This document shows, piece by piece, positions 477-54,878 of a DNA stretch of 64,000 bases. The stretch is from contig JACOUL010000008.1 of assembly GCA_016177875.1 (NCBI GenBank), forward strand, positions 15,432 through 79,431, read 5' to 3'. A program made the position numbers and the translations under genes. The notes beneath the pieces are model-generated. The model did not search any database. It worked only from the letters and a program-made list of their open reading frames with translations, and had not been told where the DNA came from. The number at the start of each line of letters is the position of its first letter. The stretch's first letter is position 1. Source of the DNA: Burkholderiales bacterium. Lineage in GTDB: Bacteria > Pseudomonadota > Gammaproteobacteria > Burkholderiales > Burkholderiaceae_D.

Positions 477-1457
477 ATGCAGAATTTTTCCTCATCAATT
501 CAATCCCACAATGGCTTCATTCAAGCGTATCGCAAGGATGAGGATGGAATTCGTGCCGAACTAAGTGAGGGCTTGTTGGCTTCGCCGGCGGTTACTTCTC
601 CGAAATATCTTTATGACGCACTTGGCTCACGTTTGTTCGCGGCGATTTGTGAACTGCCGGAATACTACTTAACCCGCACCGAAGCTGCAATTTTCCAAGC
701 GCATCTGCCTGAAATGGCGGAAGCAATCGGACCCGGGCGCACTCTCATCGATCTAGGAGCAGGCAATTGTTCCAAGGCAGCGCGCTTGTTCTCTGCATTG
801 AGTCCGCAGCAGTATGTGCCCGTCGACATTTCGGTTGAATTTCTGCGCGATTCGGTTGAGTTGTTGCGGCAACGTTTTCCGGAGATAGAGATCACCGGCG
901 TCGGTTTGGATTTCTCGACGACCTTGGATTTGCCCGATGCCGTCAACAAGCGCAATCGTTTGTTTTTTTATCCGGGCTCGTCGCTCGGTAACTTTATGCC
1001 GGAAGACGCCGTTGAATTTCTGCGCGGTGTACATCAGGCTTGCGCGGGCGAGGGTGGCTTGTTAATCGGCGTCGATTTGGTGAAGGATAAACAGATTCTC
1101 GATGCCGCTTACGACGACGCGCTGGGTGTGACGGCTTCTTTTAATCTCAATTTGCTTCTGCATTTAAATAGGTTGCTTGGTGCGGATTTTAATGTGCGGG
1201 ATTGGGCTCACCGTGCGTTCTTCAATGAGAACAAGAGCCGGATCGAAATGCATCTCGAAGCGCGTCGAAGCGTGACGGTAAGCTGGTCGGGTGGGAAGCG
1301 GCAATTTGCCGAAGGCGAGCGCATTCACACCGAGAATAGCTACAAGTACACACGCGAGTCGTTCGTTCGCCTGTTGGAGCGAGCCGGATTCGGCGAGACA
1401 AAGGTGTGGACCGATCCGCGCGGATGGTTCATGGTCTGCTACGCGAAGCTTGTATGA
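477..1457 (+). CDS. egtD: L-histidine N-alpha-methyltransferase (hercynine synthase) EgtD
   Basis: 326 aa with the EgtD-type SAM methyltransferase hallmarks: YLYDxxGSxLFxxIxxLPEYY near the N-terminus and LIDLGAGNCSK. It is followed with an ATGA overlap by an EgtB-like gene. Confidence 0.85.
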   Translation: MQNFSSSIQSHNGFIQAYRKDEDGIRAELSEGLLASPAVTSPKYLYDALGSRLFAAICELPEYYLTRTEAAIFQAHLPEMAEAIGPGRTLIDLGAGNCSKAARLFSALSPQQYVPVDISVEFLRDSVELLRQRFPEIEITGVGLDFSTTLDLPDAVNKRNRLFFYPGSSLGNFMPEDAVEFLRGVHQACAGEGGLLIGVDLVKDKQILDAAYDDALGVTASFNLNLLLHLNRLLGADFNVRDWAHRAFFNENKSRIEMHLEARRSVTVSWSGGKRQFAEGERIHTENSYKYTRESFVRLLERAGFGETKVWTDPRGWFMVCYAKLV

Positions 1458-2719
1458 ATGCGCAAACAGAACAGCACTTTCTGACTGGCGCCGACACGTT
1501 GCGCCAGCATTACTCTGCGGTGCGGACCCAGACCATGGCGCTGTGCGAGCCTTTGTCGCCGGAAGATTGCTGTGCGCAATCCATGCCGGATGCAAGCCCC
1601 ATTAAATGGCATATCGCGCATACGGCCTGGTTTTTTGAAACCTTTGTACTTGAACGATACGAGCCGGATTTTCAAGTCTTTCAGCCGGCTTTCCGCATGC
1701 TTTTCAATTCGTACTACAACGCTATCGGAAACAAGCATCCGCGTTCGCATCGCGGCCTACTGACGCGCCCTTCAATGACGGAGGTGACGGAGTATCGGCG
1801 CAATGTCGATCAGCGCATAGGGAATTTGCTGGATCAAGAGGATGTTGTCGCCGATATTCTGCCCTTAATCGAGTTAGGCTTGCACCATGAACAGCAGCAT
1901 CAAGAATTGATGTTGACCGATGTGAAGCATCTGTTGTCTTGCAATCCGATGCAGCCCGCTTATGTTGATGAGCCGCTGAGATCGAATCAGAAGGCGCCTC
2001 CCATGGATTGGTTGGGCTTCGATGCCGGAGTAATAGAAGTTGGGCATAGTGGAATCGGATTCTGCTTCGACAATGAAATGCCGCGCCATCGGCAATTTGT
2101 CGAAGCGTTTCAGTTCGCCACACGCCTGGTGACCAATGGTGAGTATCTGGCGTTTGTACGCGCCGGCGGATACAGCAATCCGGCGCTGTGGCTGTCGGAA
2201 GGGTGGGACTGGGCACAAGCCAATCGATTGAGCTGCCCCCTGTACTGGCGTGCCGAGGAAAATGAGCATCACATCGATTGGTTTGAATTCACGTTGCATG
2301 GGTTGCAGCCGCTCGATTTGCACCGACCGGTTACTCACCTGTCCTATTTTGAAGCAGACGCCTACGCGCGTTGGGCCGGCGCACGTCTGCCGACCGAAGC
2401 AGAATGGGAAATCGCGGCTGGCAATTGCAATGCATTGACGATCGAAAGCCTGCATCCGCAGACCGCAACCGAGCGCGGACTCACACAAATGTTCGGCACC
2501 TGCTGGCAATGGACCTCGAGCAGTTATGCGCCGTATCCGGGGTATTCGCCGGCCGTGGGGGCAATCGGCGAGTACAACGGTAAGTTCATGTCCAACCAGT
2601 ATGTATTGCGCGGCTCGTCGTGCGTGACGCCGTTTGGCCATACCCGCAAGACTTACCGCAATTTCTTTCCAGCGGCCGCGCGCTGGCAGTTCAGCGGCAT
2701 TCGTCTGGCAAGATCTTAA
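1454..2719 (+). CDS. egtB: Ergothioneine sulfoxide synthase EgtB (DinB_2 domain plus FGE-sulfatase-like domain)
   Basis: N-terminal DinB_2 region with the HX3HXE iron motif (HHEQQHQE) and a C-terminal FGE-sulfatase-like region (RGSSCVTP...YRNFF). The start was chosen at the in-frame ATG at 1454, which overlaps the egtD stop (ATGA). The ORF track's longer 1406 start would overlap egtD by 52 nt. Confidence 0.85.
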   Translation: MNAQTEQHFLTGADTLRQHYSAVRTQTMALCEPLSPEDCCAQSMPDASPIKWHIAHTAWFFETFVLERYEPDFQVFQPAFRMLFNSYYNAIGNKHPRSHRGLLTRPSMTEVTEYRRNVDQRIGNLLDQEDVVADILPLIELGLHHEQQHQELMLTDVKHLLSCNPMQPAYVDEPLRSNQKAPPMDWLGFDAGVIEVGHSGIGFCFDNEMPRHRQFVEAFQFATRLVTNGEYLAFVRAGGYSNPALWLSEGWDWAQANRLSCPLYWRAEENEHHIDWFEFTLHGLQPLDLHRPVTHLSYFEADAYARWAGARLPTEAEWEIAAGNCNALTIESLHPQTATERGLTQMFGTCWQWTSSSYAPYPGYSPAVGAIGEYNGKFMSNQYVLRGSSCVTPFGHTRKTYRNFFPAAARWQFSGIRLARS

Positions 2720-27717: not shown

Positions 27718-27723
27718 ACGCTA

Positions 27724-29679: not shown

Positions 29680-29690
29680 TCCCAGTGGAT

Positions 29691-29960: not shown

Positions 29961-29964
29961 GGCC

Positions 29965-30684: not shown

Positions 30685-30707
30685 GTGGCTATCCCGGCGG
30701 ACATTGC

Positions 30708-31565: not shown

Positions 31566-31592
31566 AATCGCAGGTATCAACTTCCATACTCG

Positions 31593-31892
31593 ATGTATTT
31601 AGATCATCCCAAAATTACCGCCACCAAAGGCGACACCGAAACCGATCGTATCGACAGAGTCAACCGTGTTTACGGTTACGCCGTCGGCATTGCGGACGAA
31701 CGGGGCAATAAAGAATTCATCAACAAGCTCGGGCGCCTTCATGACCACAAGGGTACCTTGATTGTCGTTTGGCGGATCGAGCCGACCGAACAAGAAAAAA
31801 GCTATCTGGTAAAAGCCTGGCAAAGCTTGATCGGCGATGAGTCGACCAATGTTGAGCACGAGATGGAATCGGAAGTCCAGCCTCCACAATAG
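31593..31892 (+). CDS. Hypothetical protein (99 aa), no recognisable domain
   Basis: ORF 27 bp downstream of the previous hypothetical gene, same strand, with an acidic C-terminus. Confidence 0.4.
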   Translation: MYLDHPKITATKGDTETDRIDRVNRVYGYAVGIADERGNKEFINKLGRLHDHKGTLIVVWRIEPTEQEKSYLVKAWQSLIGDESTNVEHEMESEVQPPQ

Positions 31893-31907
31893 TCCCGCAA
31901 TATTTTT

Positions 31908-32156
31908 CTATCCGAAGGGATTTTCGACTCGTTCGATGTCGGGCGACGGCAACTGGTCGGGTAAAGTCTCGCCCTCCAGCGCATGCACTGCAGCGTCGAT
32001 TATTTCCTTGAGTTCCTTCGCTAAGCGCAATCCGGTCTGATCTTTAGTGATTTGCAGCGAGCCGTAAATTTCAAGACGGTCGAGACGGTTCTCAATGGTG
32101 AGATCATCGAGCGCAAGGCTGTCTCGTTCGTTGGCAAAGGGTAAGAATTTTTTCAT
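31908..32156 (-). CDS. Small hypothetical protein (82 aa), translationally coupled downstream of the secreted nuclease; candidate nuclease inhibitor or immunity protein
   Basis: Its ATG overlaps the nuclease stop codon (ATGA, 32153-32156). Acidic, no signal peptide. The function is inferred from context only. Confidence 0.45.
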   Translation of the reverse strand: MKKFLPFANERDSLALDDLTIENRLDRLEIYGSLQITKDQTGLRLAKELKEIIDAAVHALEGETLPDQLPSPDIERVENPFG

Positions 32157-32980: not shown

Positions 32981-33165
32981 TGCAATGCTATTGGAAAAAT
33001 GCAATTTGGATAGTAGCTCGTCTGCGAAGTTCGTAATAATCGTTCAAAGCTATTGAACCTTTAAGCGAACCCGTGCATCGTTTGCGAAAACGCAAATATT
33101 ACCCGCCCTCCTTGCCATATGATTTTTCCTGATCCTTCAATACACTCCCCCTGGAGTTGTTTTTT

Positions 33166-36155: not shown

Positions 36156-36692
36156 ATGCTGACTGCAACTTATTCACTCGCCACTCTCTCTGCCGAACAA
36201 AAAAATACGCGCAGCATCCTGTTCAAGTTACAGCAACATATCAAGAGCATTCTGTATGACCTGCATAACTTGAACCGGAATTGTGTAGAAAATGTATTGG
36301 TGAAGTTAGAGCAGTTCGAGGAGTATTGTCATCGCCGTAAAGTAGAAATTTATGTCATCCCGGCGATCCGCAAAGTAACGCATGAAGCGGATCCGATTTT
36401 GGAGGAGCTGGAATCGCTGAGCTTTAAAGCGGTAGGTATCTTGCGCGCATTGCGTGAGCAATTGATCAATGCATTCGAGCAAGGCATGATTGAAGTAAAT
36501 AAGGTCTGTTCGTCAATCGAGCAGTACTGCGGTAATTTGATGAAGCGTTTGACTAAGGAAGAGGATGAGCTTCTACCGATGGCGAGAGGTTTGCTGCCCA
36601 TTGAGGAGTGGTTCAATATTGCATCGAAATTGCTTTCGGAGGAAGGCAGCAAAAAATCCTTGCCTCCCGCGATCGCGCAATTGCCTGCCTAG
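36156..36692 (+). CDS. Hypothetical protein, possibly hemerythrin-like (HHE cation-binding) domain
   Basis: 178 aa helical protein with spaced His/Glu residues (H..., EEDELLPMAR) reminiscent of hemerythrin-like domains; weak. AAGGAG RBS. Confidence 0.35.
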   Translation: MLTATYSLATLSAEQKNTRSILFKLQQHIKSILYDLHNLNRNCVENVLVKLEQFEEYCHRRKVEIYVIPAIRKVTHEADPILEELESLSFKAVGILRALREQLINAFEQGMIEVNKVCSSIEQYCGNLMKRLTKEEDELLPMARGLLPIEEWFNIASKLLSEEGSKKSLPPAIAQLPA

Positions 36693-37574: not shown

Positions 37575-38990
37575 ATGGCACTGACGGCCGCAGACGTCTT
37601 AAAGATGGCAAAGGAAAACGAAGTCAAATTCGTTGATTTCCGTTTTGCTGATACCCGAGGCAAGGAACAGCACGTGTCCGTGCCGATTTCGCAATTTGAC
37701 ATGAGCAAATTCGAAAGCGGTCACGCGTTCGACGGTTCTTCCATCGCAGGCTGGAAAGGCATTGAAGCGTCCGACATGTTGCTGATGCCGGATCCGAATA
37801 CCGCGAACATCGACCCCTTCATGGAAGAGACCACGATGTTCATGCAGTGCGACGTCATTGAGCCGTCCGACGGCAAGGGTTATGACCGCGATCCGCGTTC
37901 CATCGCCAAGCGCGCAGAAGCCTATTTGAAAGCATCCGGCCTGGGCGATACCGCTTACTTCGGCCCGGAACCTGAATTCTTCATTTTCGATTCCGTACGC
38001 TGGAAAATCGACATGTCCGGTTGCATGGTCAAGGTCGATTCCGAAGAAGCTTCCTGGTCTACCGACCGCGAATTCGAAGGCGGTAATACCGGCCATCGTC
38101 CGTCAGTGAAGGGCGGCTACTTCCCGGTTCCCCCGGTCGACAGCTTCCAAGACATGCGTTCCGAAATGTGCCAAATCCTGGAAGCCATGGGTATTCCGGT
38201 TGAAGTGCACCACCACGAAGTAGCCGGCGCCGGTCAAAACGAAATCGGTACCAAGTTCTCGACGCTGGTACAACGCGCCGACTGGACCCAGAACCTGAAA
38301 TACATCGTGTGGAACGTTGCTCACACCTACGGCAAGACCGCAACCTTCATGCCGAAGCCTATCGTCGGCGATAACGGTTCCGGTATGCACGTTCACCAAT
38401 CCGTTTGGAAAGACGGCAACAACCTGTTCGCAGGCGACGGCTATGCCGGTCTGTCCGAATTCGCGCTGTACTACATCGGCGGCATCATCAAGCACGCTCG
38501 CGCGCTGAACGCCATCACCAACCCGGGTACTAACTCCTACAAGCGTCTGGTTCCTGGCTTTGAAGCACCGGTGAAGCTGGCTTACTCTTCGCGTAACCGT
38601 TCGGCTTCGATCCGTATTCCGCACGTGCCGAGCCCGAAAGCGCGCCGTATTGAAACCCGCTTCCCGGATCCGTCCTCGAATCCGTACCTGTGCTTTGCTG
38701 CCCTGTTGATGGCAGGTCTGGATGGCGTTCAGAACAAGATCCACCCAGGCGATCCGGCTTCTAAGGATCTGTACCATCTACCGCCGGAAGAAGATGCGAA
38801 GATCCCGACCGTGTGCTCCTCGCTGGACCAAGCGCTTGAGTACCTGGACAAGGATCGCGAGTTCCTGACCCGCGGCGGCGTGTTCAGCGACACCATGATC
38901 GACGCTTACATCGAGTTGAAGATGCAAGAAGTGACACGCTTCCGCATGACGACTCATCCGATCGAGTTCGACATGTACTATTCGCTGTAA
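37575..38990 (+). CDS. glnA: Glutamine synthetase type I
   Basis: 471 aa with the GSI signatures, including the adenylylation-site region (NPY) and the ATP-binding motif [16 protein letters not shown]. Confidence 0.95.
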
Positions 38991-39016
38991 TCCTTAGATT
39001 TTTAAGGCAAAAATTG

Positions 39017-39047
39017 AAAAGGGCGGGAATTTCCCGCCCTTTTTTTG
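39017..39047 (+). terminator. Rho-independent terminator after glnA
   Basis: GGGCGGGAATTTCCCGCCC hairpin followed by T8. Confidence 0.7.
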
Positions 39048-39202
39048 TTCTATAGCTTGCCTGCCGGAAGCTATCCTAAAGGTAAGAGTGGTTGTGGTAA
39101 GAATGCATTACAAATTATTAAGATTGTCTGCAAACAATTGTAAATCCTTGATTCTTATCCTAAACTGACATTCCGCAATAATAGTTTCGTTTTGGAAATA
39201 TT

Positions 39203-39694
39203 ATGAAGCAGCTCATTTTTGTCCCCTTTCTGTTTGCCATCCTGGGCAGTTATGCGCATGCGCAAACCGACGTCTATGTCTGCACGGATGAGCGCGGCAA
39301 CAAGGAATACAAGAACACCGCCGCCGGCAGCACTAAGGGCTGCAAGCGTGTCGAATTACCGGGTATTACCACTGTCCCCGCGCCGAAGCGCCCGGTTGTG
39401 GCGCAAACAGCCTCTAAATCGGCTTCGACCCCTGCAGATTTTCCTAAGGCCGACGGTAGTGCGCAAAAGGCACGTGACAATGATCGGCGTCAGATTCTCT
39501 TGGACGAATTGAAAAATGAAGAGCAGAAGCTCTCCGTGCTGCAAAAAGAATTCAACGGCGGTGAGCCGGAACGCCGTGGCGACGAAAAGAATTTTGCTAA
39601 ATACCAGGAGCGGGTCGGTCTCATGAAGGAGGATATGAGCCGTACCGAGAAAAATATCGAAGCGCTTAAACGCGAGATTTCCAATCTTAAGTAA
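39203..39694 (+). CDS. DUF4124-type secreted protein located between glnA and ntrB
   Basis: 163 aa: signal peptide, then the DVYVCTDERGNKEYKNT motif characteristic of DUF4124, and a C-terminal coiled-coil region. Confidence 0.6.
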   Translation: MKQLIFVPFLFAILGSYAHAQTDVYVCTDERGNKEYKNTAAGSTKGCKRVELPGITTVPAPKRPVVAQTASKSASTPADFPKADGSAQKARDNDRRQILLDELKNEEQKLSVLQKEFNGGEPERRGDEKNFAKYQERVGLMKEDMSRTEKNIEALKREISNLK

Positions 39695-39716
39695 GCAGGT
39701 ATGACCCTTGCATAAA

Positions 39717-39746
39717 GTTGGCCGCGCAAGCGGCCGATTTTTTTTT
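39717..39746 (+). terminator. Rho-independent terminator after the DUF4124 gene, immediately before the ntrB start
   Basis: GGCCGCGCAAGCGGCC hairpin followed by T10. The ntrB ATG follows at 39748. Confidence 0.55.
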
Positions 39747-39747
39747 T

Positions 39748-40827
39748 ATGGACTCCAATAGAAACACAATTTCTCTAGACGGATTGGATTTGCTGGCATC
39801 GGCCGTCATGATCCTTGATGCGGACGATCGTGTCGCGTACGTCAATCCGGCTGCCGAGCATTTGCTTGAGAGTTCGATAAAGGCGCTCACGCATCAGAAA
39901 TTCGCGGATCTTTTTTCGAATGCAGGCAATCTCTCTGCGGTTTTTCAACAGGCGGCGAATCACGTATTTGCCGATAAGCGTCAAGACTTGACCTTGGAGC
40001 GGCCGGGGCGTGAGCCCCTGCATGTGCACGTGATCGTTACGGCGCTCGATAATCCAGCGACGCCCATTTTGATCGAGCTGCGCGAAAACGAACAGCAGTT
40101 AAAGCTCGATCGCGAAGAGCGCTTGATCGATCAGAGTCTGGCGAACAAGGAATTGATCCGCAATCTCGCGCATGAAATCAAAAATCCCTTAGGCGGCATT
40201 CGCGGCGCGGCGCAATTATTGGAATTGGAACTCCCCGAGCGGCATGTGCGTGAGTTGCGCGAATACACGCAGGTGATCATTAAGGAAGCGGATCGCTTGC
40301 AAACTTTGGTGGATCGCTTGCTTGAGCCGCATCGCAGTCCGCACATTGTCGGCGACGTCAATATCCATGAGGTATGTGAACGGGTGCGCAGTCTGATCGT
40401 CGCCGAATTTCCGAACGGCCTAACAATCAAGCGCGACTATGATTTGTCGGTGCCGGAATTCCGGGGCGACAAAGAACAGTTGATTCAAGCCGTGTTGAAC
40501 ATTGCACATAATGCTGCCCAAGCGCTGTCGGAAAGAATTCAGGTCGGTGATGCACAATTGACATTGCAGACCCGAATCGCGCGTCAAGTCACCCTTGCTA
40601 AGGTGCGTTACCGGCTGGCATTAGACTTGCATATCATCGATAACGGACCAGGTATCCCACCCGAAATCCGAGACCGCATTTTCTATCCATTGGTATCAGG
40701 GAGAGAAGGTGGCAGCGGCTTGGGGCTGACGTTGGCGCAAACCTTTGTGCAGCAGCACTTAGGGGTGATTGAATGCGAAAGCAGGTCGGGATGCACGGAT
40801 TTCCGGATTTTGATACCGTTGCCTTGA
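39748..40827 (+). CDS. ntrB: Nitrogen regulation sensor histidine kinase NtrB (GlnL)
   Basis: N-terminal PAS region, H-box (LAHEIKNPLGGIRGAAQLL) and a HATPase_c domain; followed by ntrC. Start chosen at the internal ATG after the terminator. Confidence 0.85.
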   Translation: MDSNRNTISLDGLDLLASAVMILDADDRVAYVNPAAEHLLESSIKALTHQKFADLFSNAGNLSAVFQQAANHVFADKRQDLTLERPGREPLHVHVIVTALDNPATPILIELRENEQQLKLDREERLIDQSLANKELIRNLAHEIKNPLGGIRGAAQLLELELPERHVRELREYTQVIIKEADRLQTLVDRLLEPHRSPHIVGDVNIHEVCERVRSLIVAEFPNGLTIKRDYDLSVPEFRGDKEQLIQAVLNIAHNAAQALSERIQVGDAQLTLQTRIARQVTLAKVRYRLALDLHIIDNGPGIPPEIRDRIFYPLVSGREGGSGLGLTLAQTFVQQHLGVIECESRSGCTDFRILIPLP

Positions 40828-40879
40828 ATAGGCCTAAGCGTCACGAGCGCGCGGGCTGTGTCTGGACTACTGGGAAAAT

Positions 40880-42430
40880 ATGAAGCCAATCTGGATTGTA
40901 GACGACGACGAATCGATTCGCTGGGTGCTTGAGAAAGCCCTCGCTAGAGAGAACCTCGCCACAAAAAGTTTTTCCAATGCGCGTGACGCAATGGACGCGC
41001 TGCAGACCAGCACTCCGCAAGTTTTAGTGTCCGACATTCGCATGCCGGGCGAGTCCGGTCTCGATTTGCTCACCGCTGTCAAAGCCAAGCATCCCGGCCT
41101 TCCGGTCATCATCATTACAGCATTCTCCGATTTGGATTCGGCCGTAGCGGCGTTCCAGGGCGGCGCTTTCGAATACCTTGCCAAACCCTTCGATGTCGAT
41201 AAGGCGGTCGAACTCATTCGGCGCGCGCTAGAGGAGAGCCTGCGCGAAACCAGCGTTGAGCAGATCTCGGCGGATACGCCCGAAATTCTCGGCCAGGCGC
41301 CGGCGATGCAAGACGTATTTCGCGCGATCGGCCGCTTGTCGCAATCGAATGTCACCGTGCTGATTACGGGAGAATCCGGTACCGGCAAGGAGCTGGTGGC
41401 ACGCGCATTACATAAGCATAGCCCGCGTGCGGATCAGCCGTTCATCGCATTGAATACCGCGGCGATTCCCAAGGACTTACTGGAGTCGGAGCTATTCGGC
41501 CACGAGCGCGGCGCGTTCACCGGGGCACAAGCTACCCGGCGTGGGCGCTTCGAGCAGGCGGAAAACGGCACACTCTTCCTCGATGAGATCGGCGATATGC
41601 CCTTTGATTTGCAGACGCGTTTGCTGCGTGTGCTGTCGGATGGACACTTCTATCGTGTCGGCGGTCATCAGCCCTTGAAGGCGAACGTGCGCGTGATCGC
41701 AGCGACCCATCAGAACTTGGAAAATCGCGTCAAGGAAGGCTTGTTCCGGGAAGACTTGTATCACCGCTTGAACGTGATTCGTCTGCGCTTACCGAGCCTG
41801 CGCGAGCGCCGTGAAGACATTCCTATTTTGACGCGCTACTTTCTCGCGCAAAGCGCCAAGCAATTGGGCGTGGAAGCCAAGCGTATGTCGGACAGCGCCA
41901 TGCAGTTTCTGTCCAGCCTGGACTTGCCCGGCAATGTGCGCCAACTGGAAAACTTATGCAACTGGATCACGGTAATGGCGCCGGGCCAAGCCGTCGAGAT
42001 CAAAGATTTGCCGCAAGATTTGATCAATGAAAAGGGCACTGCACCGGCCAATTTTATGCCGCCGACCGCTACCGGCTTTGGATCGTCGCAGCTTCAAAAT
42101 GGTGCGGCGGCCAACTATGACGCACCGAATGGGAGCGGGTTTCCGTCTGGAATCACCAATTCTGTACCAGCCGTCTTGTCCCATGCAAACGGCTCACATT
42201 CGGATAGTTGGATCAGTTTGCTGGAATCTGAAGCGGCTCAAATGTTGTCGGCGGGTCAACCCGAAGTGATGGATGCACTTGGCCGGCAATTTGAATCCGC
42301 CTTAATCAAGACCGCTTTGAAACATACTCATGGCCGCAAGAACGATGCCGCGGTACGCCTAGGCATCGGCCGCAACACCATCACGCGCAAGATTCAAGAG
42401 CTGGGCATTTCCGGCGTTAAGGACGAATAA
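40880..42430 (+). CDS. ntrC: Nitrogen regulation response regulator NtrC (GlnG), a sigma-54 activator
   Basis: Receiver domain (IWIVDDDESIRWVLEKAL, conserved D), AAA+ sigma-54 interaction domain (GESGTGKE, GAFTGA, ESELFGHE) and a C-terminal Fis-type HTH. Confidence 0.9.
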   Translation: MKPIWIVDDDESIRWVLEKALARENLATKSFSNARDAMDALQTSTPQVLVSDIRMPGESGLDLLTAVKAKHPGLPVIIITAFSDLDSAVAAFQGGAFEYLAKPFDVDKAVELIRRALEESLRETSVEQISADTPEILGQAPAMQDVFRAIGRLSQSNVTVLITGESGTGKELVARALHKHSPRADQPFIALNTAAIPKDLLESELFGHERGAFTGAQATRRGRFEQAENGTLFLDEIGDMPFDLQTRLLRVLSDGHFYRVGGHQPLKANVRVIAATHQNLENRVKEGLFREDLYHRLNVIRLRLPSLRERREDIPILTRYFLAQSAKQLGVEAKRMSDSAMQFLSSLDLPGNVRQLENLCNWITVMAPGQAVEIKDLPQDLINEKGTAPANFMPPTATGFGSSQLQNGAAANYDAPNGSGFPSGITNSVPAVLSHANGSHSDSWISLLESEAAQMLSAGQPEVMDALGRQFESALIKTALKHTHGRKNDAAVRLGIGRNTITRKIQELGISGVKDE

Positions 42431-43498: not shown

Positions 43499-44509
43499 AT
43501 GACCGGTTTCATCCTTGAACTGGCGGCAATGTTGCTGGTTATTCTCGCTGCTTCCGAGTTGTTTACCAATGCGCTCGAACACCTCGGCGAAAAATTGAAA
43601 ATTTCCGAAGGCGTCACCGGTTCCTTGTTCGCCGCTGTCGGCACCGCGCTGCCTGAAACGATGGTGCCCTTGCTTGCATTATTTGCCGGCACCAGCAACA
43701 TGAAGGTCAATGAAGAAATCGGTGTCGGCGCTATTCTCGGCGCGCCTTTGATGTTATCCACCTTATCTACATGTTTGATGGCGATGTCGATTTGGAAGCG
43801 GCGCGGCGCTACCGGGATTGTCGCTCCCGAACGCAGCGGATTTGTCCGCGATCTGCATTTTTTTCTCTTTGCCTTTGCATTGGCTGCAGCAGCGATGTAC
43901 GTGCCCCAAGAAGACCGATACCTGCGCGGCACGTTGAGCCTGGCATTACTGTTGACTTACTTCATATACATCATGCTCACGCTACGCGCATCGGCGCAAT
44001 TGGTCGACGAAGGCCATGGCACGGAAGCGAACGACAAGATGTTCTTCTCGCGAATCGGACTGCCGACGAATTTTTTGACTATCCTGATTCAATTAGGCGC
44101 CGGCTTAGGCTTGTTGATTTTCGGGGCGAAGGGATTTATTAACGGCGTGGAAGGACTGGCGCACATATTAGGCGTGTCCGCGCTTTTGCTTTCCCTTTTA
44201 ATCATTCCTATCGCGACCGAATTGCCCGAAAAGGTGAATAGTATTCTTTGGATACGGCGCGGCAAAGATACGCTCGCTTTCGGCAATATCACGGGCGCCA
44301 TGGTGTTTCAAGGCACGCTGCTTCCCGCTATCGGCATTATGCTGACGCCTTGGCAGCCGCGTATTGAGGTGCTAGGCGGCGTAGCGATCACCTTGCTTGC
44401 CGCTGCTTGGCTCCGTCTTAACGCGCGCAATAACGGATTGCCGGTTTGGACGCTCTTCGTCAATGGCGCGTTATACGTGACATACCTTACGATCACGCTG
44501 AAAGGATAA
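43499..44509 (+). CDS. Sodium/calcium exchanger (CaCA family) membrane protein
   Basis: Two alpha-repeat regions with GS(L/A)F...ELP/ETMV-type motifs (GVTGSLFAAVGTALPE, ATELPEKV). Confidence 0.7.
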   Translation: MTGFILELAAMLLVILAASELFTNALEHLGEKLKISEGVTGSLFAAVGTALPETMVPLLALFAGTSNMKVNEEIGVGAILGAPLMLSTLSTCLMAMSIWKRRGATGIVAPERSGFVRDLHFFLFAFALAAAAMYVPQEDRYLRGTLSLALLLTYFIYIMLTLRASAQLVDEGHGTEANDKMFFSRIGLPTNFLTILIQLGAGLGLLIFGAKGFINGVEGLAHILGVSALLLSLLIIPIATELPEKVNSILWIRRGKDTLAFGNITGAMVFQGTLLPAIGIMLTPWQPRIEVLGGVAITLLAAAWLRLNARNNGLPVWTLFVNGALYVTYLTITLKG

Positions 44510-45274
44510 GCGATTGGTCGTGAAAGTGATGCGCGCGGTCAGGGTCGCGGCGGCGCCGGTCGCCAGCAAGTGCTTTAGTGTATGGCCGCTGATGATGCCG
44601 GTTGTTTGCAGAATGCCGTGATCATGTAATTCCGCAGCTTTGGCGGCGATATATAAAACGATGGCGCCGCCAAAATAAATCCAGTCGATGCGCGGCGACC
44701 GGTATATCCACAACCATAATGGAATCAACACCAGCGGAAGCGCTTGCAGCAGCAGGTAAGGGCGCAAGTCGCCTGCGCCGTTGCGCTCGGTGATATACCA
44801 CCAGAAGACGCTGACCACAGCGGCGGACGCAAACAGCTGGACGTCATATTTGGCGCCTCCGTGCGTTTGGGTGCGCACACCGGCGAGCAAGCCGGCGCAG
44901 GCCAGGGCGATCGGCAGCCTGTCCCACAATAGGCGATCGTTATCCGGGGCGAGATGGTAAAAGCCGGAACCGGCGGCGGTCAAAACCAAGGCGATCAAGA
45001 ATAGCCGATAGCCCGATAAGCCGGGCAGCGTCGGCGCGGCTGAACGAAGACGCGCGAGCCCCCAAACGCCCACGACAAAAAAACCGAGGTTGGAAAGGAC
45101 GTCTGCGGCATTGGGTACGCCGAGCCAGGCATGTTGATCGGCGAAGTCATGGTAATGCGGAAGCTGTGCAATCGGCCCATGCAGGAGCATGGCGATGGCA
45201 GCGCCGAGCGTTACGAGAAGCGGTAAGCGAAGCAGGAAGGTTTGCATGGCATTGTTTAGAAATGAGAGGTGCAC
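44471..45274 (-). CDS. Polytopic membrane protein, possibly ceramidase-like family
   Basis: 267 aa, about 7 TM helices, conserved His/Asp (HYHDFAD). The family call is tentative. Confidence 0.4.
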   Translation of the reverse strand: MHLSFLNNAMQTFLLRLPLLVTLGAAIAMLLHGPIAQLPHYHDFADQHAWLGVPNAADVLSNLGFFVVGVWGLARLRSAAPTLPGLSGYRLFLIALVLTAAGSGFYHLAPDNDRLLWDRLPIALACAGLLAGVRTQTHGGAKYDVQLFASAAVVSVFWWYITERNGAGDLRPYLLLQALPLVLIPLWLWIYRSPRIDWIYFGGAIVLYIAAKAAELHDHGILQTTGIISGHTLKHLLATGAAATLTARITFTTNRLSFQRDRKVCHV

Positions 45275-45528
45275 TCATGTTATCCAATGCCATGCAATAT
45301 GCCACAACGGCAAGCTATGTCTTAGGGCTTGCACCTAATAGCGGCATGTCGCGATACTAAGAGCTTCTATCACAATGAAACCGACCTGCCTGCCAGCCAA
45401 ATGCGGTGTCTGCGTCGTTGCGCTCCTCGCCAAGGGGAACCACCCTTGGCTCGTCGCGCGTCTAGCATCCATCCGCATGTGGCAGCCAGACAAATCGGCC
45501 TCATTATGTTAGAAGCTCTAAGTCCGCG

Positions 45529-46020
45529 TTAGCGGGCACCGGGAGCGCCTGCGCCGCGATGGCCGTGGCGATGCATCGGACCTTTGGCAACGTTGTCGTC
45601 AAAGATTTTCTTTTGCTCCGGCGTTAAGGTCGCATAGAAAGTCTTGGTGGCGGCGATTGCATTCGTCAAATGGACCTCCGCTTGTTTCAGGCGTTCCAGC
45701 ATTTTTTCCATGCGTTCCGGCGCAGTGAGTTTTTCCCATTGCGCTTTGTCCGGGCGTGCCGGCCGCTCGGCGGGCGTAAGGGCTGTAATATAGGTCTTCC
45801 AAGCAGCTTCCTGGCCGGCATTCAACTTGAGTTTGTCGTGTAGCTCGGCTTGGCGTTTGGCGAAGTGCTCGCGGAATTTTCCTTCGTGAGGGCGTCCCAT
45901 CATGGCGCTGGCGGCACCGTCTTTGCCTTCCGGTGCCTTGTCGCCCGGAGCGGCGATGGTGCCTAAACTGATACCGAATGCCGTTGCGCCGAGGAGCAAG
46001 CTTTTGCAAAATTTATTCAT
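45529..46020 (-). CDS. Spy/CpxP-family periplasmic protein (LTxxQ motifs)
   Basis: Signal peptide (MNKFCKSLLLGATAFGISLGTIAA), two LTxxQ/LTxxE motifs (LTPAERP, LTPEQKKIF), helical. Start chosen at the internal ATG of the 45529..46101 ORF. Confidence 0.65.
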   Translation of the reverse strand: MNKFCKSLLLGATAFGISLGTIAAPGDKAPEGKDGAASAMMGRPHEGKFREHFAKRQAELHDKLKLNAGQEAAWKTYITALTPAERPARPDKAQWEKLTAPERMEKMLERLKQAEVHLTNAIAATKTFYATLTPEQKKIFDDNVAKGPMHRHGHRGAGAPGAR

Positions 46021-46247
46021 GGCGATTCTCCTAAAATGTTGAGGACAGAGTACCGCTACGCATAACTCTTTCCCCAATCGGTTAAAAGTGAAGATGTGCA
46101 AAGCACACGATATGCATTGTGCTTGTCCTTTGTATCGCCAAAGTTTCGGGAGTCATGGATTTTGTATCAAAATATTTCATTGCCGAGGATACAAAACGAT
46201 ACAAAATTTGCGGTAATCGACGCATTTCGCCCTGCATAATACATAGC

Positions 46248-48346: not shown

Positions 48347-48542
48347 TCATTCCTACATAAGCTTGACCTAAGGAACTTCCTCTCCTAGTATGGATTCAGG
48401 CCGCTTGCTGCCTGTCGTCCCCGCCGGATTCCGGTATGGTGAAAGCAAGGCTTTAAATTTCCACGTTGGTTAACTTGTTGCCAGCGTCGAGAATGGGGAC
48501 TCCGACACCGATATCGGCTTGCTGGCGATAAGGAAGACCATC

Positions 48543-48956
48543 ATGTACAGCAGAGAAGAGTTCAAGGCAGAAGCGCGTCGCTTGCGTGCCCATCTTTCAG
48601 TTAAACACGGATTGGAGTTGTCGATCGGGCATGCGCTCGAAGCGATCGCCGCGGTCCACAATTATCCCAATTGGGACGCCGCTTCGGCTTCAGCAAAAGG
48701 CGAGCAGCCTGCGAGCGATATCAGGCCGTATAAGGAAGTGCAAGTCATCGTCTCGGATGGTGTGGCGACGGATGAAGTGTACAAGCAAGTATGCAATCTT
48801 ATGCGCGTCAATCCCGATCACTTTGCTTTTCTCGTGGAAGAGACCGACGCGCGTTCAAGCGTCGATTGGGAAAAAATCACCGATATCATCACGCAGTGCG
48901 AGATCAGCTTTTCTCGCAGCTATGTCACGGCGGAATATTTAACGCCGTCTATCTAG
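48543..48956 (+). CDS. Hypothetical protein (137 aa)
   Basis: AGGAAG RBS 7 nt before the ATG. The N-terminal segment (EARRLRAHLSVKHGLELSIGHALEAIAAVHNYPNWD) resembles a small conserved domain often annotated as a 'glyoxalase superfamily protein'; from memory only. Confidence 0.4.
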   Translation: MYSREEFKAEARRLRAHLSVKHGLELSIGHALEAIAAVHNYPNWDAASASAKGEQPASDIRPYKEVQVIVSDGVATDEVYKQVCNLMRVNPDHFAFLVEETDARSSVDWEKITDIITQCEISFSRSYVTAEYLTPSI

Positions 48957-51600: not shown

Positions 51601-52659
51601 TCAGAGAGACACTTGCACCCTGGCGGAACCAGACACCATTTCGCCAACGACCGCAGCCTCGTTAAAACCATCGCGGCGGAATATTTCCAAGACCTGGTCA
51701 ACCGCGCCAGGTGCGCAAGATACCAATAGGCCTCCCGAGGTTTGCGGGTCGGTGAGCAGCATTTGCTGAACCGGGGTAATGGCGTAGGACAAATCCACAT
51801 CATCGCCGTAGCCTGCCCAATTGCGGCCGGACGCGCCGGTGATGCAACCATTTTCGGCCAGCGCCTGTACGCCCGGCAGCAAAGGGATGCGTTTCATGTT
51901 CAATTTTGCAGTCAGTCCCGCGCCGCGGGCCAATTCCAGGGTATGGCCGAGCAAGCCAAAGCCTGTAACGTCGGTCAATGCGTGCACGCCGGGCAAATCG
52001 GAAAGGGCTTTCCCCGGTTTATTGAGTTTGGTGGTATTGGCGATCATGGCGGCATAACCGGCGGCGTCCAGCGCTTCTTTTTTTAATGCGGCCGATAGAA
52101 TGCCGACGCCGAGCGGTTTGCCGAGAATGAGTTTGTCGCCAGCTTGCGCATCGGCATTGCGTTTGACTTTTGAAGGATGCACAAGCCCCATCACCACCAG
52201 GCCGTAAATCGGTTCCACCGAGTCAATGGTATGGCCGCCGGCGATCGGAATGCCGGCTTCGGCGCACACCGCTTCGCCGCCGCGAATGATATTGCCGATG
52301 ACATCGAGTGGCAGCTTGTTGACGGGCATGGCAACCAGGGCCAATGCCATGATCGGCGTGCCGCCCATTGCATAAACGTCCGAGATCGCATTCGTTGCAG
52401 CAATGCGGCCGAAGTCGAATGGATCGTCGACGATCGGCATGAAGAAATCGGTGGTGGCGATTAAGGCTTGCTCATCGTTGAGTTGATAGACGGCAGCGTC
52501 ATCCGCGGTTTCGATGCCGACCATCAGTTCTTTCGGAACAGGAAATCCGCTCGATTTTTTTAAAATTTCCGCCAGCACGCCCGGCGCGATCTTGCAGCCG
52601 CAACCGCCGCCATGAGAAAACGAAGTGAGCTTGATTCCTTCTTGCGTTGCCGAATTCAT
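51601..52659 (-). CDS. selD: Selenide, water dikinase (selenophosphate synthetase), Cys form; SenC-like
   Basis: 352 aa with the N-terminal GGGCGCKI motif (Cys at the Sec/Cys position) and the PurM-like fold. It overlaps the upstream glycosyltransferase gene by 4 nt. Confidence 0.8.
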   Translation of the reverse strand: MNSATQEGIKLTSFSHGGGCGCKIAPGVLAEILKKSSGFPVPKELMVGIETADDAAVYQLNDEQALIATTDFFMPIVDDPFDFGRIAATNAISDVYAMGGTPIMALALVAMPVNKLPLDVIGNIIRGGEAVCAEAGIPIAGGHTIDSVEPIYGLVVMGLVHPSKVKRNADAQAGDKLILGKPLGVGILSAALKKEALDAAGYAAMIANTTKLNKPGKALSDLPGVHALTDVTGFGLLGHTLELARGAGLTAKLNMKRIPLLPGVQALAENGCITGASGRNWAGYGDDVDLSYAITPVQQMLLTDPQTSGGLLVSCAPGAVDQVLEIFRRDGFNEAAVVGEMVSGSARVQVSL

Positions 52660-53660
52660 GCGCTGCGTTCCTTCTTAAGTGTTTGACGCAAAGTATTATC
52701 CACCAAGTTCAACAAGGCCGTCCGTTCCCGCTCGGGTGCGAAGAGCGGGGCACGCGCGCGGCATTGCCGATACAAATGCTGATAAAAGCAAGGGTCGGTA
52801 GCGGCACGATCGATCAGCCGCGCGAGTGCGGCGGCATCGCCGACCGGAAAATAGCCTGCATAGTTCTTTCCCAGCATGCCGCGATTTCCGGAAATATCGC
52901 TCGCCAAAACCGGCACACCGCTCGTGACGGCTTCGATGATGACGTTGGCGCCGCCTTCCATTTTCGACGCGATGACCATCAAGTGGCTGCGTTTGAGCAA
53001 TTGGCGAGTGGCGGCGTGCGGCAAATCGCCCTGCCAGCGGTAACAAGCATGGTGTTCCTGGGTTTGTCGAGCTAGTTTGGCAAGCTTGGGAGCTTGAGCT
53101 TCACTGCCGATATGCGTCAGGCGAACTTGTTGCGTGTTCAGCAGGGCGGCAGCATGCATGAAGGTCGCGGGATCTTTTTCTTCACGAAAATGGCCGATCA
53201 TGCAGACGTCGAAATGGCGCATGCGGCGCCTCGTTTCCAATTCAATCGGCGTAAGGCTTGGTGCGGATTGATAAATCACGCTGGTTTTTTTTCTCAAACG
53301 GGGAGCGAGTTCTTCTATACCGGCCTCCTGTAAAACCACCAAGCGGTTGGCGATTGCCAGCGAATGTTGCGCCGCGTCGTCGACCTGAATGTCGCGATAG
53401 AGGTCGGTGCCCGTCAACACTAGAATGATGGGGGCGGTCGGCACGCGAGAAGCGAGTGCCGCCAGCGCCTTGGCGGAACGCCGCGCGTGCAAGGCAATGA
53501 TTAAATCCGGCTCGATCGATGCAAGAGGCGTATCCGTCGCAGCCACGACCGACAGTCGGTAGTGCGGCCGCAAAAAACGCGCCCAGCGACTGGCTGTTTG
53601 CCAGTTTCCGTTGTTGGCATTTGCCAGAGCCGGGCTGATTATGACAATATGTTTTTTCAC
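52656..53660 (-). CDS. GT-B fold glycosyltransferase (GT4-like); candidate selenosugar synthase SenB
   Basis: 334 aa with GT1/GT4-type organisation. It is translationally coupled to selD and divergent from the EgtB-like gene. The start codon is GTG. Confidence 0.65.
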   Translation of the reverse strand: MKKHIVIISPALANANNGNWQTASRWARFLRPHYRLSVVAATDTPLASIEPDLIIALHARRSAKALAALASRVPTAPIILVLTGTDLYRDIQVDDAAQHSLAIANRLVVLQEAGIEELAPRLRKKTSVIYQSAPSLTPIELETRRRMRHFDVCMIGHFREEKDPATFMHAAALLNTQQVRLTHIGSEAQAPKLAKLARQTQEHHACYRWQGDLPHAATRQLLKRSHLMVIASKMEGGANVIIEAVTSGVPVLASDISGNRGMLGKNYAGYFPVGDAAALARLIDRAATDPCFYQHLYRQCRARAPLFAPERERTALLNLVDNTLRQTLKKERSA

Positions 53661-53681
53661 GAGTGACGATGTTTAGAATTC

Positions 53682-54878
53682 ATGTCCGAGAACAGCGCTT
53701 CATTCCGCAATTTTTCACCGGCCGAGCTCGCGCGCGCCATGCGCGATGCGCGTGAGACGACGCTTGCGCTGTTCGATTGCTTTAAGGCAGCTGGGCTCGA
53801 TAATCCACGGCAAGTGCCCTACCTTGCCATCATTAATCCGCCTTTATGGGAGCTGGGTCACGTTGCCTGGTTTGCCGAATGGTACATTTTGCGCGAAGCG
53901 GCGTCGAGCGCTCCCGCTTCGGCTAAACGCAGTTCGCTGTTGACCAAGGGTGACGATTGGTTTGATTCCAATACCGTGCCGCATAAGACGCGCTGGTCGC
54001 TCGATTTGCCGAGTACCGGCGCGCTCAAGACCTATTGTCATGAAGTCTTGGATCGTGCTTTGGATAAACTCATGCACTTAGAGAATAGGCATGAGCTGCT
54101 GTATCCCTATCGCTTGGCGCTTGCGCACGAAGACATGCACGGCGAAGCATTTGCTTATACCTTGCAGACGCTGGGCATCAAACCGCCGCCGATGTTGGCG
54201 AATCGGCGCACGCGTCCGTGGGGCCAAGGCGAGATTCGATTTCCGGGGCAAACGATCCAGCTCGGCAGCACCCCCGATCTCGGCTTCGTATTCGATAACG
54301 AGAAGTGGGCACATCCATGCTACGTGCCGGCATTTATCATGGACTCTACACTGGTTTCGAATGCGCAGTTTTCCGAATTTGTCGCGGACGGCGGTTATGA
54401 GCGCGCGCAGTTTTGGTCGACCGCGGGGCGTCAGTGGTTAATCCAACAAGAACGCTCGACACCGACCGGATGGCAAAGCGACGGCAAGCAATGGCTGGCG
54501 GAGCGTTTCGGCGAATTGGCGGTGATGGCGCCGCATGAACCCGTGCGGCACGTCAGCTTGTATGAAGCGCAGGCTTATTGCGCTTGGGCCGGGCGGCGCT
54601 TGCCGACCGAGATGGAATGGGAATGCGCGGCCTTGTCGGGCCATCCGGCGTTTCGCTGGGGAGATTTATGGGAGTGGACGTGTACGCCGTTTGAACCCTA
54701 TCCAGGATTCGAGGCGGACGCTTATCGTGAATATTCGGTGCCGTGGTTTTCCACGCACCAGACGCTGCGCGGCGCATCGTTTGCGACGCGCGAGCGTATG
54801 CGTTCCATCAAATATCGCAATTTCTATCGGCCGGAACGCAACGATATCTTCGTTGGGTTCCGGACCTGTGCGATTTAG
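53682..54878 (+). CDS. EgtB-like sulfoxide/selenoxide synthase paralog (DinB_2 plus FGE-sulfatase-like); candidate selenoneine synthase SenA
   Basis: 398 aa with the HX3HXE motif (HEDMHGE) and a C-terminal RGASFAT...KYRNFY region. This is a second copy, distinct from egtB at 1454..2719. Genomic context: selD plus a glycosyltransferase. Confidence 0.7.
   Translation: MSENSASFRNFSPAELARAMRDARETTLALFDCFKAAGLDNPRQVPYLAIINPPLWELGHVAWFAEWYILREAASSAPASAKRSSLLTKGDDWFDSNTVPHKTRWSLDLPSTGALKTYCHEVLDRALDKLMHLENRHELLYPYRLALAHEDMHGEAFAYTLQTLGIKPPPMLANRRTRPWGQGEIRFPGQTIQLGSTPDLGFVFDNEKWAHPCYVPAFIMDSTLVSNAQFSEFVADGGYERAQFWSTAGRQWLIQQERSTPTGWQSDGKQWLAERFGELAVMAPHEPVRHVSLYEAQAYCAWAGRRLPTEMEWECAALSGHPAFRWGDLWEWTCTPFEPYPGFEADAYREYSVPWFSTHQTLRGASFATRERMRSIKYRNFYRPERNDIFVGFRTCAI

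What the first reader, a model, noticed from the sequence alone, without database searches (positions are those of the whole stretch)
51601..54878. SelD + glycosyltransferase + second EgtB-like paralog: a selenoneine-type (senC-senB-senA) biosynthetic cluster in the same window as egtD
- Seen in sequence: a Cys-type selenophosphate synthetase (GGGCGCK motif) is translationally coupled (4-nt overlap) to a GT-B glycosyltransferase.
- This pair is directly divergent from an EgtB-like protein carrying the DinB_2 HX3HXE iron motif (HEDMHGE) and an FGE-sulfatase-like C-terminal domain.
- This is a second EgtB-family copy, clearly distinct from the egtB that overlaps egtD at 1454-2719.
- Established knowledge (from memory): a three-gene pathway was described in 2022 in Variovorax and other bacteria (Kayrouz et al., Nature 2022). 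It consists of a selenophosphate synthetase (SenC), a selenosugar synthase glycosyltransferase (SenB) and an EgtB homolog (SenA), and converts hercynine to selenoneine, the Se analog of ergothioneine.
- Inference: this organism likely makes both ergothioneine (egtD-egtB) and selenoneine, with EgtD supplying hercynine to both.
- No Sec-incorporation genes (selA, selB, tRNA-Sec) or selU are in the window. This fits a SelD dedicated to small-molecule selenium metabolism, but those genes may lie elsewhere.
Basis: partly seen in the sequence, partly recalled or inferred. Interest (0 to 1): 0.8.

Follow-up and report, generated by a model that had tools for sequence, protein, structure and literature searches.

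The report
Canonical selenoneine (senCBA) biosynthesis cluster

Summary
selD/senC is at 51601-52659(-). A glycosyltransferase at 52656-53660(-) overlaps the selD start by 4 nt (ATGA). An EgtB-like gene at 53682-54878(+) is divergent across a 21-bp spacer.

Curated NCBIfam equivalog models name all three above their cut-offs: SelD 547 bits (cut-off 299), SenB 423 (300), SenA 526 (420). The SenA candidate fails the EgtB model (271 against 360).

The closest solved structures are Variovorax SenA (325 bits, 44% identity) and SenB (263-273 bits, 49%). Every mutationally or structurally defined residue I could map is present. Its composite motif, NEH--HRHMHYYNFYR, fits the published SenA rule and not the OvsA, EgtB-I or EgtB-II rules.

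The second copy at 1454-2719 is a type II EgtB, coupled to egtD. The senC-senB/senA-DEAD helicase-fabI arrangement is conserved in about 50 related Oxalobacteraceae loci.

Verdict: a bona fide, apparently functional sen cluster. Interest is low.

Side note from relatives: SenA-like genes that lack an adjacent senB have degenerate iron-binding sites, yet still pass the SenA model.

The parts
51601..52659 (-). senC / selD: Cys-type selenophosphate synthetase (selenide, water dikinase). It makes selenophosphate from selenide and ATP.
   Evidence: NCBIfam NF002098 547 bits (cut-off 299) and TIGR00476 437 bits (cut-off 125). E. coli SelD 3u0o scores 331 bits. GGGCGCK with C20/K23 corresponds to E. 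coli C17/K20. The motif is identical in 56 of 56 related senC genes.
52656..53660 (-). senB: selenosugar synthase (GT-B Se-glycosyltransferase). It converts UDP-sugar plus selenophosphate to a 1-seleno-sugar. It lies upstream of senC, and its stop overlaps the senC start (ATGA).
   Evidence: TIGR04348 SenB equivalog 423 bits (cut-off 300). PDB hits are RsSenB 8k5u at 273 bits and VpSenB 8rz3/8jjq at 263 bits, 49% identity. Residues N19, T22, H58, T83, T85, Q131, R159, K162 and E235 are conserved.
53661..53681 (.). 21-bp divergent spacer between the senB start (GTG) and the senA start (ATG). The promoters must therefore lie inside the opposite coding regions.
   Evidence: Sequence. Two sigma-70-like matches on the + strand at 53614-53648, inside the senB 5' end, would serve senA. 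The scan is not above chance, with 3 found against 1.9 expected.
53682..54878 (+). senA: selenoneine synthase, a non-haem iron enzyme of the EgtB superfamily. It joins the selenosugar to C2 of hercynine. The selenoxide then eliminates spontaneously to give selenoneine.
   Evidence: NF041186 SenA 526 bits (cut-off 420); EgtB model 271 bits, below its cut-off of 360. VpSenA 8ryz/8k5i scores 325 bits at 44% identity. The composite motif N52 E57 H60 H101 R104 H149 M152 H153 Y348 Y351 N380 F381 Y382 R386 fits the SenA rule.
477..1457 (+). egtD: histidine N-alpha-methyltransferase. It supplies hercynine to both SenA and EgtB and lies 50 kb from the sen genes.
   Evidence: TIGR03438 393 bits (cut-off 291) and Pfam PF10017 E = 1e-106. 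Relatives have egtD next to senCBA.
1454..2719 (+). egtB, type II (cysteine-using sulfoxide synthase) of the ergothioneine pathway. Its start overlaps the egtD stop. It is context, not part of the sen cluster.
   Evidence: TIGR03440 570 bits (cut-off 360); SenA model 383 bits, below 420. Chloracidobacterium EgtB 6o6l scores 456 bits. The composite SHH-YY-RRHQH-I-YNFF-A fits the EgtB-II rule.

Best explanation
The region is an intact three-gene selenoneine biosynthesis cluster of the kind described by Kayrouz and Seyedsayamdost in 2022. I infer the mechanism from homology to the reconstituted Variovorax enzymes.

1. SenC (SelD) phosphorylates selenide with ATP to give selenophosphate.
2. SenB is translationally coupled upstream of SenC. 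It attacks a UDP-sugar (UDP-GlcNAc preferred in Variovorax) with selenophosphate. It then cleaves the Se-P bond using Lys162 and water, releasing a 1-seleno-beta-sugar.
3. SenA is transcribed divergently from a shared 21-bp spacer. It binds Fe(II) through His60, His149 and His153. With O2 it couples the selenosugar to C2 of hercynine.
4. The resulting selenoxide eliminates the sugar spontaneously, so no lyase is needed, and selenoneine is formed.
5. Hercynine comes from EgtD, encoded 50 kb away with a type II EgtB. The organism should therefore make both ergothioneine and selenoneine.

Gene identity, residue conservation and synteny are shown here. Enzyme activities, co-regulation and product formation are inferred.
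For: - **Family models:** the equivalog HMMs are above their curated cut-offs for all three proteins, and the EgtB model is below its cut-off for SenA.
- **Solved structures:** the best hits are Variovorax SenA and Variovorax/RsSenB.
- **SenA residues:** those shown by structure or mutagenesis to bind iron, hercynine and the selenosugar, and the catalytic Tyr, are all conserved. The EgtB Arg87/Asp416 thiol-binding pair is replaced by His101/Tyr382, as in all SenA.
- **SenB residues:** catalytic K158 corresponds to K162. The N20/T23/E231 triad corresponds to N19/T22/E235. The selenophosphate-pocket residues T83/T85 are conserved.
- **Composite motif:** it fits the published SenA rule xNEH--HRHxHYYN(F/Y)(F/Y)R.
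- **Gene overlap:** the 4-nt senB/selD overlap is the signature by which the pathway was discovered.
- **Synteny:** the senC-senB/senA-DEAD-fabI arrangement is found in 49 of 80 related loci, all with canonical motifs.
- **Hercynine supply:** EgtD is present in the window.
Against: - There is no biochemical or metabolite evidence. The source is an uncultured MAG.
- Identity to the characterised enzymes is only 44% for SenA and 49% for SenB.
- SenB reads EGGANV in place of the reported conserved EGGAHV motif, and has Gln21 where VpSenB has Arg22. Both differences are clade-wide (55 of 55 for EGGANV). RsSenB, which is active, also has Gln.
- No selenate or selenite transporter is adjacent.
- The HMM score alone is not proof. 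Relatives with destroyed iron sites still score above 480 bits on the SenA model.
Confidence: 0.92

Rival explanations
1. The cluster makes ovoselenol (N-pi-methyl-5-selenohistidine) instead. On this reading the EgtB-like enzyme is an OvsA that selenylates histidine at C5 using the same SenB/SenC selenosugar supply.
For: OvsA is the nearest sister family of SenA and also clusters with senB/senC. OvsA structures are the second-best PDB hits at 201-210 bits.
Against: The histidine-binding signature of OvsA (M, Q, A) is not present. The window protein has Y351, N380 and F381, the hercynine-binding YNF of SenA. SenA scores 325 bits against 210 for OvsA. No OvsM methyltransferase is adjacent; the neighbours are PBP1A and a DEAD-box helicase. 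OvsA is almost confined to aquatic gamma-proteobacteria.
Confidence: 0.02
2. The linkage is a coincidence. On this reading selD serves selenocysteine or 2-selenouridine synthesis, the glycosyltransferase is a cell-envelope enzyme next to PBP1A, and the EgtB-like protein is a second sulfur-specific ergothioneine enzyme.
For: GenBank names the proteins 'EgtB' and 'TIGR04348 family glycosyltransferase'. The cluster sits among housekeeping genes: PBP1A, helicase and FabI. SelD could serve other selenium pathways as well.
Against: The SenB equivalog is above its cut-off, and the next-best glycosyltransferase family scores 123 bits against a cut-off of 400. The EgtB model is below its cut-off, and the thiol-binding Arg/Asp pair is absent. 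The ATGA overlap of senB and selD is present and the arrangement is conserved across a family. The window has no selA, selB, selU or tRNA-Sec.
Confidence: 0.02
3. The cluster is a decaying remnant that no longer makes selenoneine, as appears to be the case for SenA-like genes in some relatives.
For: 19 of 79 close SenA homologues have lost iron ligands or other key residues, yet remain full-length and score as SenA.
Against: All the degenerate copies lack an adjacent senB. The window has senB and senC, and every key residue in all three proteins is intact. It belongs to a clade of canonical copies.
Confidence: 0.04

Closest known systems
sen cluster (senA-senB-senC) of Variovorax paradoxus DSM 30034 and Amycolatopsis palatopharyngis (Kayrouz and Seyedsayamdost 2022; structures 8RYZ/8K5I, 8RZ3/8JJQ/8FBX)
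   Same: It has the same three protein families, each above its curated cut-off. senB overlaps selD. The iron triad, catalytic Tyr, hercynine-binding and selenosugar-binding residues of SenA are the same. The catalytic Lys and N/T/E triad of SenB are the same. A separate egtD/egtB locus in the genome supplies hercynine.
   Different: Identity is 44% for SenA and 49% for SenB. SenA has Tyr382 where VpSenA has Phe397, which is within the F/Y allowed by the rule. SenB reads EGGANV rather than EGGAHV and has Gln21 rather than Arg22; both are typical of the Oxalobacteraceae clade. senA is divergent from senB-senC across a 21-bp spacer. The orientation in Variovorax was not checked here. The partner EgtB here is type II.
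RsSenB (PDB 8K5U), a functionally characterised SenB-like Se-glycosyltransferase
   Same: It is the best structural-database hit at 273 bits. It shares Gln at the position of VpSenB Arg22, the catalytic Lys and the sugar triad.
   Different: RsSenB keeps EGGAHV, whereas the window protein has EGGANV. In VpSenB the His contacts the phosphate through its main-chain amide, so I infer the change is tolerated.
ovs cluster (OvsA/OvsM with SenB/SenC) for ovoselenol
   Same: It uses the same selenophosphate and selenosugar supply, and a sister non-haem iron enzyme.
   Different: OvsA has the M/Q/A histidine-binding signature and a partner methyltransferase. The window has Y/N/F and no methyltransferase.
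EgtB type I / type II sulfoxide synthases of ergothioneine biosynthesis
   Same: They share the fold and the HX3HXE iron motif, the C-terminal FGE-like domain and the hercynine substrate.
   Different: The thiol-binding residues are replaced: EgtB-I R87/D416 become H101/Y382. The EgtB-II YY insertion is absent. The protein scores below the EgtB cut-off and is 28% identical to the window's own type II EgtB.

Membership tests
SenA (selenoneine synthase) | Scores above the curated cut-off of the NCBIfam equivalog NF041186 and better than on the EgtB model | tested here: met
   526.2 bits against a cut-off of 420. EgtB TIGR03440 gives 271.5 bits against a cut-off of 360. Caveat: degenerate relatives also pass this test, so it is not sufficient on its own.
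SenA (selenoneine synthase) | Three-His facial triad for Fe(II) (VpSenA H71, H167, H171) and catalytic Tyr363 | tested here: met
   H60, H149, H153 and Y348.
SenA (selenoneine synthase) | Hercynine-binding Y/N/F (VpSenA Y366, N395, F396), as opposed to the OvsA M/Q/A | tested here: met
   Y351, N380, F381.
SenA (selenoneine synthase) | Selenosugar pocket: N63, E68 and R120. His replaces EgtB Arg87, and Phe/Tyr replaces EgtB Asp416. R401 is present. | tested here: met
   N52, E57, R104, H101, Y382, R386.
SenA (selenoneine synthase) | Published composite motif xNEH--HRHxHYYN(F/Y)(F/Y)R | tested here: met
   NEH--HRHMHYYNFYR. I deduced the positions from VpSenA numbering, because the paper's column list was not available.
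SenA (selenoneine synthase) | Encoded next to senB and senC | tested here: met
SenA (selenoneine synthase) | [quoted passage not shown] | not testable with these tools
   Needs an enzyme assay.
SenB (TIGR04348 selenosugar synthase) | Scores above the curated cut-off of equivalog TIGR04348 | tested here: met
   422.6 bits against a cut-off of 300. The next family scores 123 bits against a cut-off of 400.
SenB (TIGR04348 selenosugar synthase) | Catalytic Lys158 for Se-P cleavage | tested here: met
   K162. It is conserved in 55 of 55 relatives.
SenB (TIGR04348 selenosugar synthase) | Sugar-donor triad N20/T23/E231 and selenophosphate-pocket residues H58, T83, T85, R155 | tested here: met
   N19, T22, E235, H58, T83, T85, R159.
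SenB (TIGR04348 selenosugar synthase) | Conserved EGGAHV motif | tested here: inconclusive
   The window has EGGANV, as do 55 of 55 related Oxalobacteraceae SenB. The key Glu is kept. The His contact in VpSenB is through its main chain.
SenB (TIGR04348 selenosugar synthase) | ORF overlaps selD (the discovery criterion) | tested here: met
   ATGA overlap at 52656-52659.
SelD / SenC (selenophosphate synthetase) | Scores above the cut-offs of the SelD equivalogs, with the N-terminal Cys/Sec and Lys of the glycine-rich loop | tested here: met
   NF002098 546.9 bits (cut-off 299) and TIGR00476 437 bits (cut-off 125). C20/K23 correspond to E. coli C17/K20. The catalytic role of these residues is from my own knowledge of E. 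coli SelD.
OvsA (ovoselenol selenoxide synthase) | Composite motif xNEH--HRHxHYMQAYR, with a partner methyltransferase OvsM | tested here: not met
   The window has YNF in place of MQA. No methyltransferase is adjacent.
EgtB (types I and II), for the 53682 gene | TIGR03440 above its cut-off, with thiol-binding R87/D416 (type I) or the YY insertion with SHH (type II) | tested here: not met
   271.5 bits, below 360. The window has H101/Y382 and no YY insertion.
EgtB type II, for the 1454 gene | TIGR03440 above its cut-off and composite xSHHYYRRHQHxYNFFx | tested here: met
   569.7 bits against a cut-off of 360. The motif is S48 H53 H56 YY R97 R100 H145 Q148 H149 I371 Y374 N403 F404 F405. Chloracidobacterium EgtB scores 456 bits.
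EgtD | TIGR03438 above its cut-off | tested here: met
   392.6 bits against a cut-off of 290.9.

The most novel reading that the evidence does not exclude
In this organism selD may exist only to feed selenoneine synthesis, with no selenocysteine or selenouridine machinery anywhere in the genome. Its sole specific use of selenium would then be a small-molecule antioxidant. In addition, the clade-specific SenB variant (EGGANV, Gln21) could select a different UDP-sugar from the Variovorax enzyme.
Probability: 0.3. Interest if true: 0.3.

Novelty: already known. Interest (0 to 1): 0.15.

Why it matters
It matters little beyond correct annotation. The GenBank record of this MAG still calls the SenA protein 'EgtB' and the SenB protein an uncharacterised glycosyltransferase. 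The region should be relabelled as a selenoneine cluster, and the organism predicted to make both ergothioneine and selenoneine.

The more useful by-product is a caution. In relatives, SenA-like proteins that have lost their iron ligands still pass the SenA annotation model. Selenoneine capacity should therefore be called only when senB is present and the active-site residues are intact.

Tried and rejected
- **tRNA and RNA families:** I searched the whole window for tRNA and tmRNA and for Rfam families. Neither found anything, so there is no tRNA-Sec, SECIS or riboswitch lead.
- **Promoters and terminators:** 3 promoter-like sites against 1.9 expected, and fewer terminator-like sites than expected. 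This is not informative. I mention the two + strand hits inside the senB 5' end only as candidate senA promoters.
- **Other selenium genes:** I scanned about 50 window ORFs with NCBIfam for selA, selB, selU or a selenate transporter. None was found. Ten small or medium ORFs had no family at all.
- **Rival readings:** I considered and rejected an ovoselenol cluster, a chance adjacency of an envelope glycosyltransferase with selD, and a decayed cluster (see rivals).
- **Could not check:** I could not check the gene orientation of the Variovorax cluster, or the rest of this MAG.
Full report
**Observation**

- 51601-52659(-), 352 aa
- 52656-53660(-), 334 aa, GTG start
- 53682-54878(+), 398 aa

On the minus strand the junction reads ...cgc agc gcATGAat tcg. 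The stop of the upstream glycosyltransferase gene and the ATG of selD therefore share four bases, and an AAGGAA run lies about ten bases upstream.

The divergent spacer between the glycosyltransferase GTG and the EgtB-like ATG is only 21 bp. Both starts are the most upstream ones possible, and both agree with where the family profiles begin. The promoters must therefore lie inside the opposite coding regions. A consensus scan finds two sigma-70-like matches at 53614-53648(+), but the scan as a whole is not above chance.

The senA stop overlaps the stop of a convergent DEAD-box helicase gene.

**Identity of the three proteins**

| Gene | NCBIfam model | Bits | Cut-off |
|---|---|---|---|
| 51601 (selD) | SelD NF002098 | 546.9 | 299 |
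| 52656 (GT) | SenB TIGR04348 | 422.6 | 300 |
| 53682 (EgtB-like) | SenA NF041186 | 526.2 | 420 |
| 53682 (EgtB-like) | EgtB TIGR03440 | 271.5 | 360 |

For the glycosyltransferase, the next-best family reaches only 123 bits against a cut-off of 400. The EgtB-like protein fails the EgtB model.

Against solved structures:
- The EgtB-like protein is closest to Variovorax paradoxus SenA (8RYZ/8K5I, 325 bits, 44% identity). OvsA follows at 201-210 bits and Mycolicibacterium EgtB at 171 bits.
- The glycosyltransferase hits RsSenB (8K5U, 273 bits) and VpSenB (8RZ3/8JJQ/8FBX, 263 bits, 49% identity). Nothing else scores above 30 bits.
- SelD hits E. coli SelD at 331 bits, and its GGGCGCK Cys20/Lys23 aligns with E. 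coli Cys17/Lys20.

**Residue-level test**

I took the functionally defined residues from the published structures and mutagenesis and mapped them onto the window proteins.

SenA:
- iron triad H71/H167/H171 maps to H60/H149/H153
- catalytic Y363 maps to Y348
- hercynine contact N395 maps to N380
- selenosugar-pocket N63/E68/R120 map to N52/E57/R104
- R401 maps to R386

The pair that binds the thiol substrate in EgtB (Arg87/Asp416) is His101/Tyr382 here. All SenA proteins have His at the first position and Phe or Tyr at the second.

The ovoselenol paper gives explicit composite-motif rules for the whole enzyme family. The window protein reads NEH--HRHMHYYNFYR. This fits SenA, xNEH--HRHxHYYN(F/Y)(F/Y)R. 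It does not fit OvsA (...YMQAYR), EgtB-I or EgtB-II.

SenB:
- catalytic K158 maps to K162
- the donor triad N20/T23/E231 maps to N19/T22/E235
- H58, T83, T85, Q131 and R155 are all conserved

There are two differences from VpSenB: Gln21 for Arg22, which the active RsSenB also has, and EGGANV for EGGAHV. Both are clade-wide in the relatives, with EGGANV in 55 of 55. In VpSenB the His contacts the phosphate through its main-chain amide.

**The other EgtB and EgtD**

The gene at 1454-2719 starts at an ATG that overlaps the egtD stop. It scores 569.7 bits on the EgtB model and falls below the SenA cut-off. It is closest to the cysteine-using type II EgtB of Chloracidobacterium (456 bits). It carries the type II composite motif, including the YY insertion. 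It is 28% identical to the window SenA.

EgtD (477-1457) is above its cut-off. No egtE-type lyase is nearby. A glutathione-transferase-like gene follows egtB.

**Context and relatives**

The exact proteins are in GenBank from a Burkholderiales MAG (MBI1889391-93). There SenA is named 'EgtB' and SenB 'TIGR04348 family glycosyltransferase'.

A scan of one genome per species found at least 598 loci encoding relatives. The best 80 (55-75% identity) are mostly Oxalobacteraceae: Herminiimonas, Noviherbaspirillum, Paucimonas, Glaciimonas, Massilia, Duganella and Rugamonas.

In 49 of them senC and senB lie divergently upstream of senA, exactly as in the window. In many the same DEAD-box helicase and fabI follow.

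In Herminiimonas MAGs (L025, L042) egtD-egtB sit directly beside senCBA. In a Gallionellaceae and a Nitrosomonadales MAG (L054, L072) egtD abuts senA. These arrangements support the functional link to hercynine supply.

The window's neighbours are housekeeping genes: OmpR/EnvZ-type regulators, PBP1A, helicase, FabI and a YejABEF-type transporter. The window has no selA, selB, selU, tRNA or Rfam family.

**Mechanism**

By homology to the reconstituted Variovorax pathway:
1. SenC makes selenophosphate.
2. SenB makes a 1-seleno-sugar from a UDP-sugar.
3. SenA couples the sugar oxidatively to hercynine from EgtD.
4. The selenoxide eliminates spontaneously to give selenoneine.

Gene identity, residue conservation and conserved linkage are shown here. 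The activities, co-regulation from the 21-bp spacer, and product formation are inferred.

**Rivals**

- An ovoselenol cluster is excluded by the YNF signature, the lower OvsA score and the absence of a methyltransferase.
- A chance adjacency of an envelope glycosyltransferase and a Sec-pathway selD is excluded by the SenB equivalog score, the catalytic residues, the ATGA overlap and the family-wide synteny.
- A decayed cluster is unlikely, because every key residue is intact.

**Novelty**

The pathway was described in 2022, with 827 clusters reported. Later work counted 1,514 SenA sequences and found SenB-like genes to be mainly beta-proteobacterial. Structures exist for SenA and SenB, and curated annotation models exist for both. 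This locus is a canonical member, and the only correction it needs is to an outdated database name. Interest is low.

**Noticed in relatives**

Nineteen of 79 close SenA homologues have degenerate active sites, for example H149 to Y and H153 to R. All 19 lack an adjacent senB. They form at least two clades, one Noviherbaspirillum-type and one Duganella-type. They have no stop codons in the aligned stretch, and they still score 481-501 bits on the SenA model. Loss of senB therefore seems to go with loss or change of SenA catalysis, and the SenA model over-calls.

Noticed in passing
Related loci, e.g. L005:6001-7176, L028:6001-7188, L044:6001-7191, L053:6001-7182 (not in the window): 19 of 79 close SenA homologues (Noviherbaspirillum-type and Duganella-type clades) have lost iron ligands or other key residues, for example H149Y and H153R. 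All 19 lack an adjacent senB. Seven keep senC, and the Noviherbaspirillum group has egtD-egtB upstream instead. They are full-length and still score 481-501 bits on the SenA model (cut-off 420). They may be pseudo-enzymes or neofunctionalised copies that annotation would mislabel.
   Followed up: partly
window 53661-53681 and 54875-54878: The cluster is packed very tightly. There is only a 21-bp spacer between the divergent senB and senA starts, so the promoters must be inside coding sequence. The senA stop overlaps the stop of the convergent DEAD-box helicase gene, leaving no room for an intergenic terminator.
   Followed up: partly
window 1454-3449: The ergothioneine EgtB is type II (cysteine-using, closest to Chloracidobacterium EgtB). 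It is followed by a glutathione-S-transferase-like gene (2634-3449, weak Atu5508-family hit) rather than an egtE-type lyase. The C-S lyase step is not encoded in the window.
   Followed up: partly
window 52656-53660; related loci: Oxalobacteraceae SenB proteins uniformly carry EGGANV instead of the published conserved EGGAHV motif (55 of 55), and mostly Gln at the VpSenB Arg22 position (49 of 55; the other six have His or Arg). This is a clade-level variant of unknown consequence for sugar-donor choice.
   Followed up: partly
window 5339-16713: There is a complete methylcitrate-cycle propionate operon: prpR, prpB, prpC, acnD, prpF, prpD, prpE. A cbb3 oxidase ccoNOP-ccoG cluster with a P-type ATPase lies at 21911-29136, and glnA-ntrBC at 37575-42430. 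All are ordinary housekeeping content.
   Followed up: no
window 29140-33004, 36156-36692, 39203-39694, 44471-46101, 48519-48956: Several ORFs of 145-283 aa have no NCBIfam family at E <= 1e-6 (48519-48956 at E <= 1e-10). They were not examined further.
   Followed up: no
GenBank MBI1889393.1 / MBI1889392.1 (same sequences as window 53682-54878 and 52656-53660): The public annotation is outdated. SenA is labelled 'ergothioneine biosynthesis protein EgtB' and SenB 'TIGR04348 family glycosyltransferase'.
   Followed up: yes
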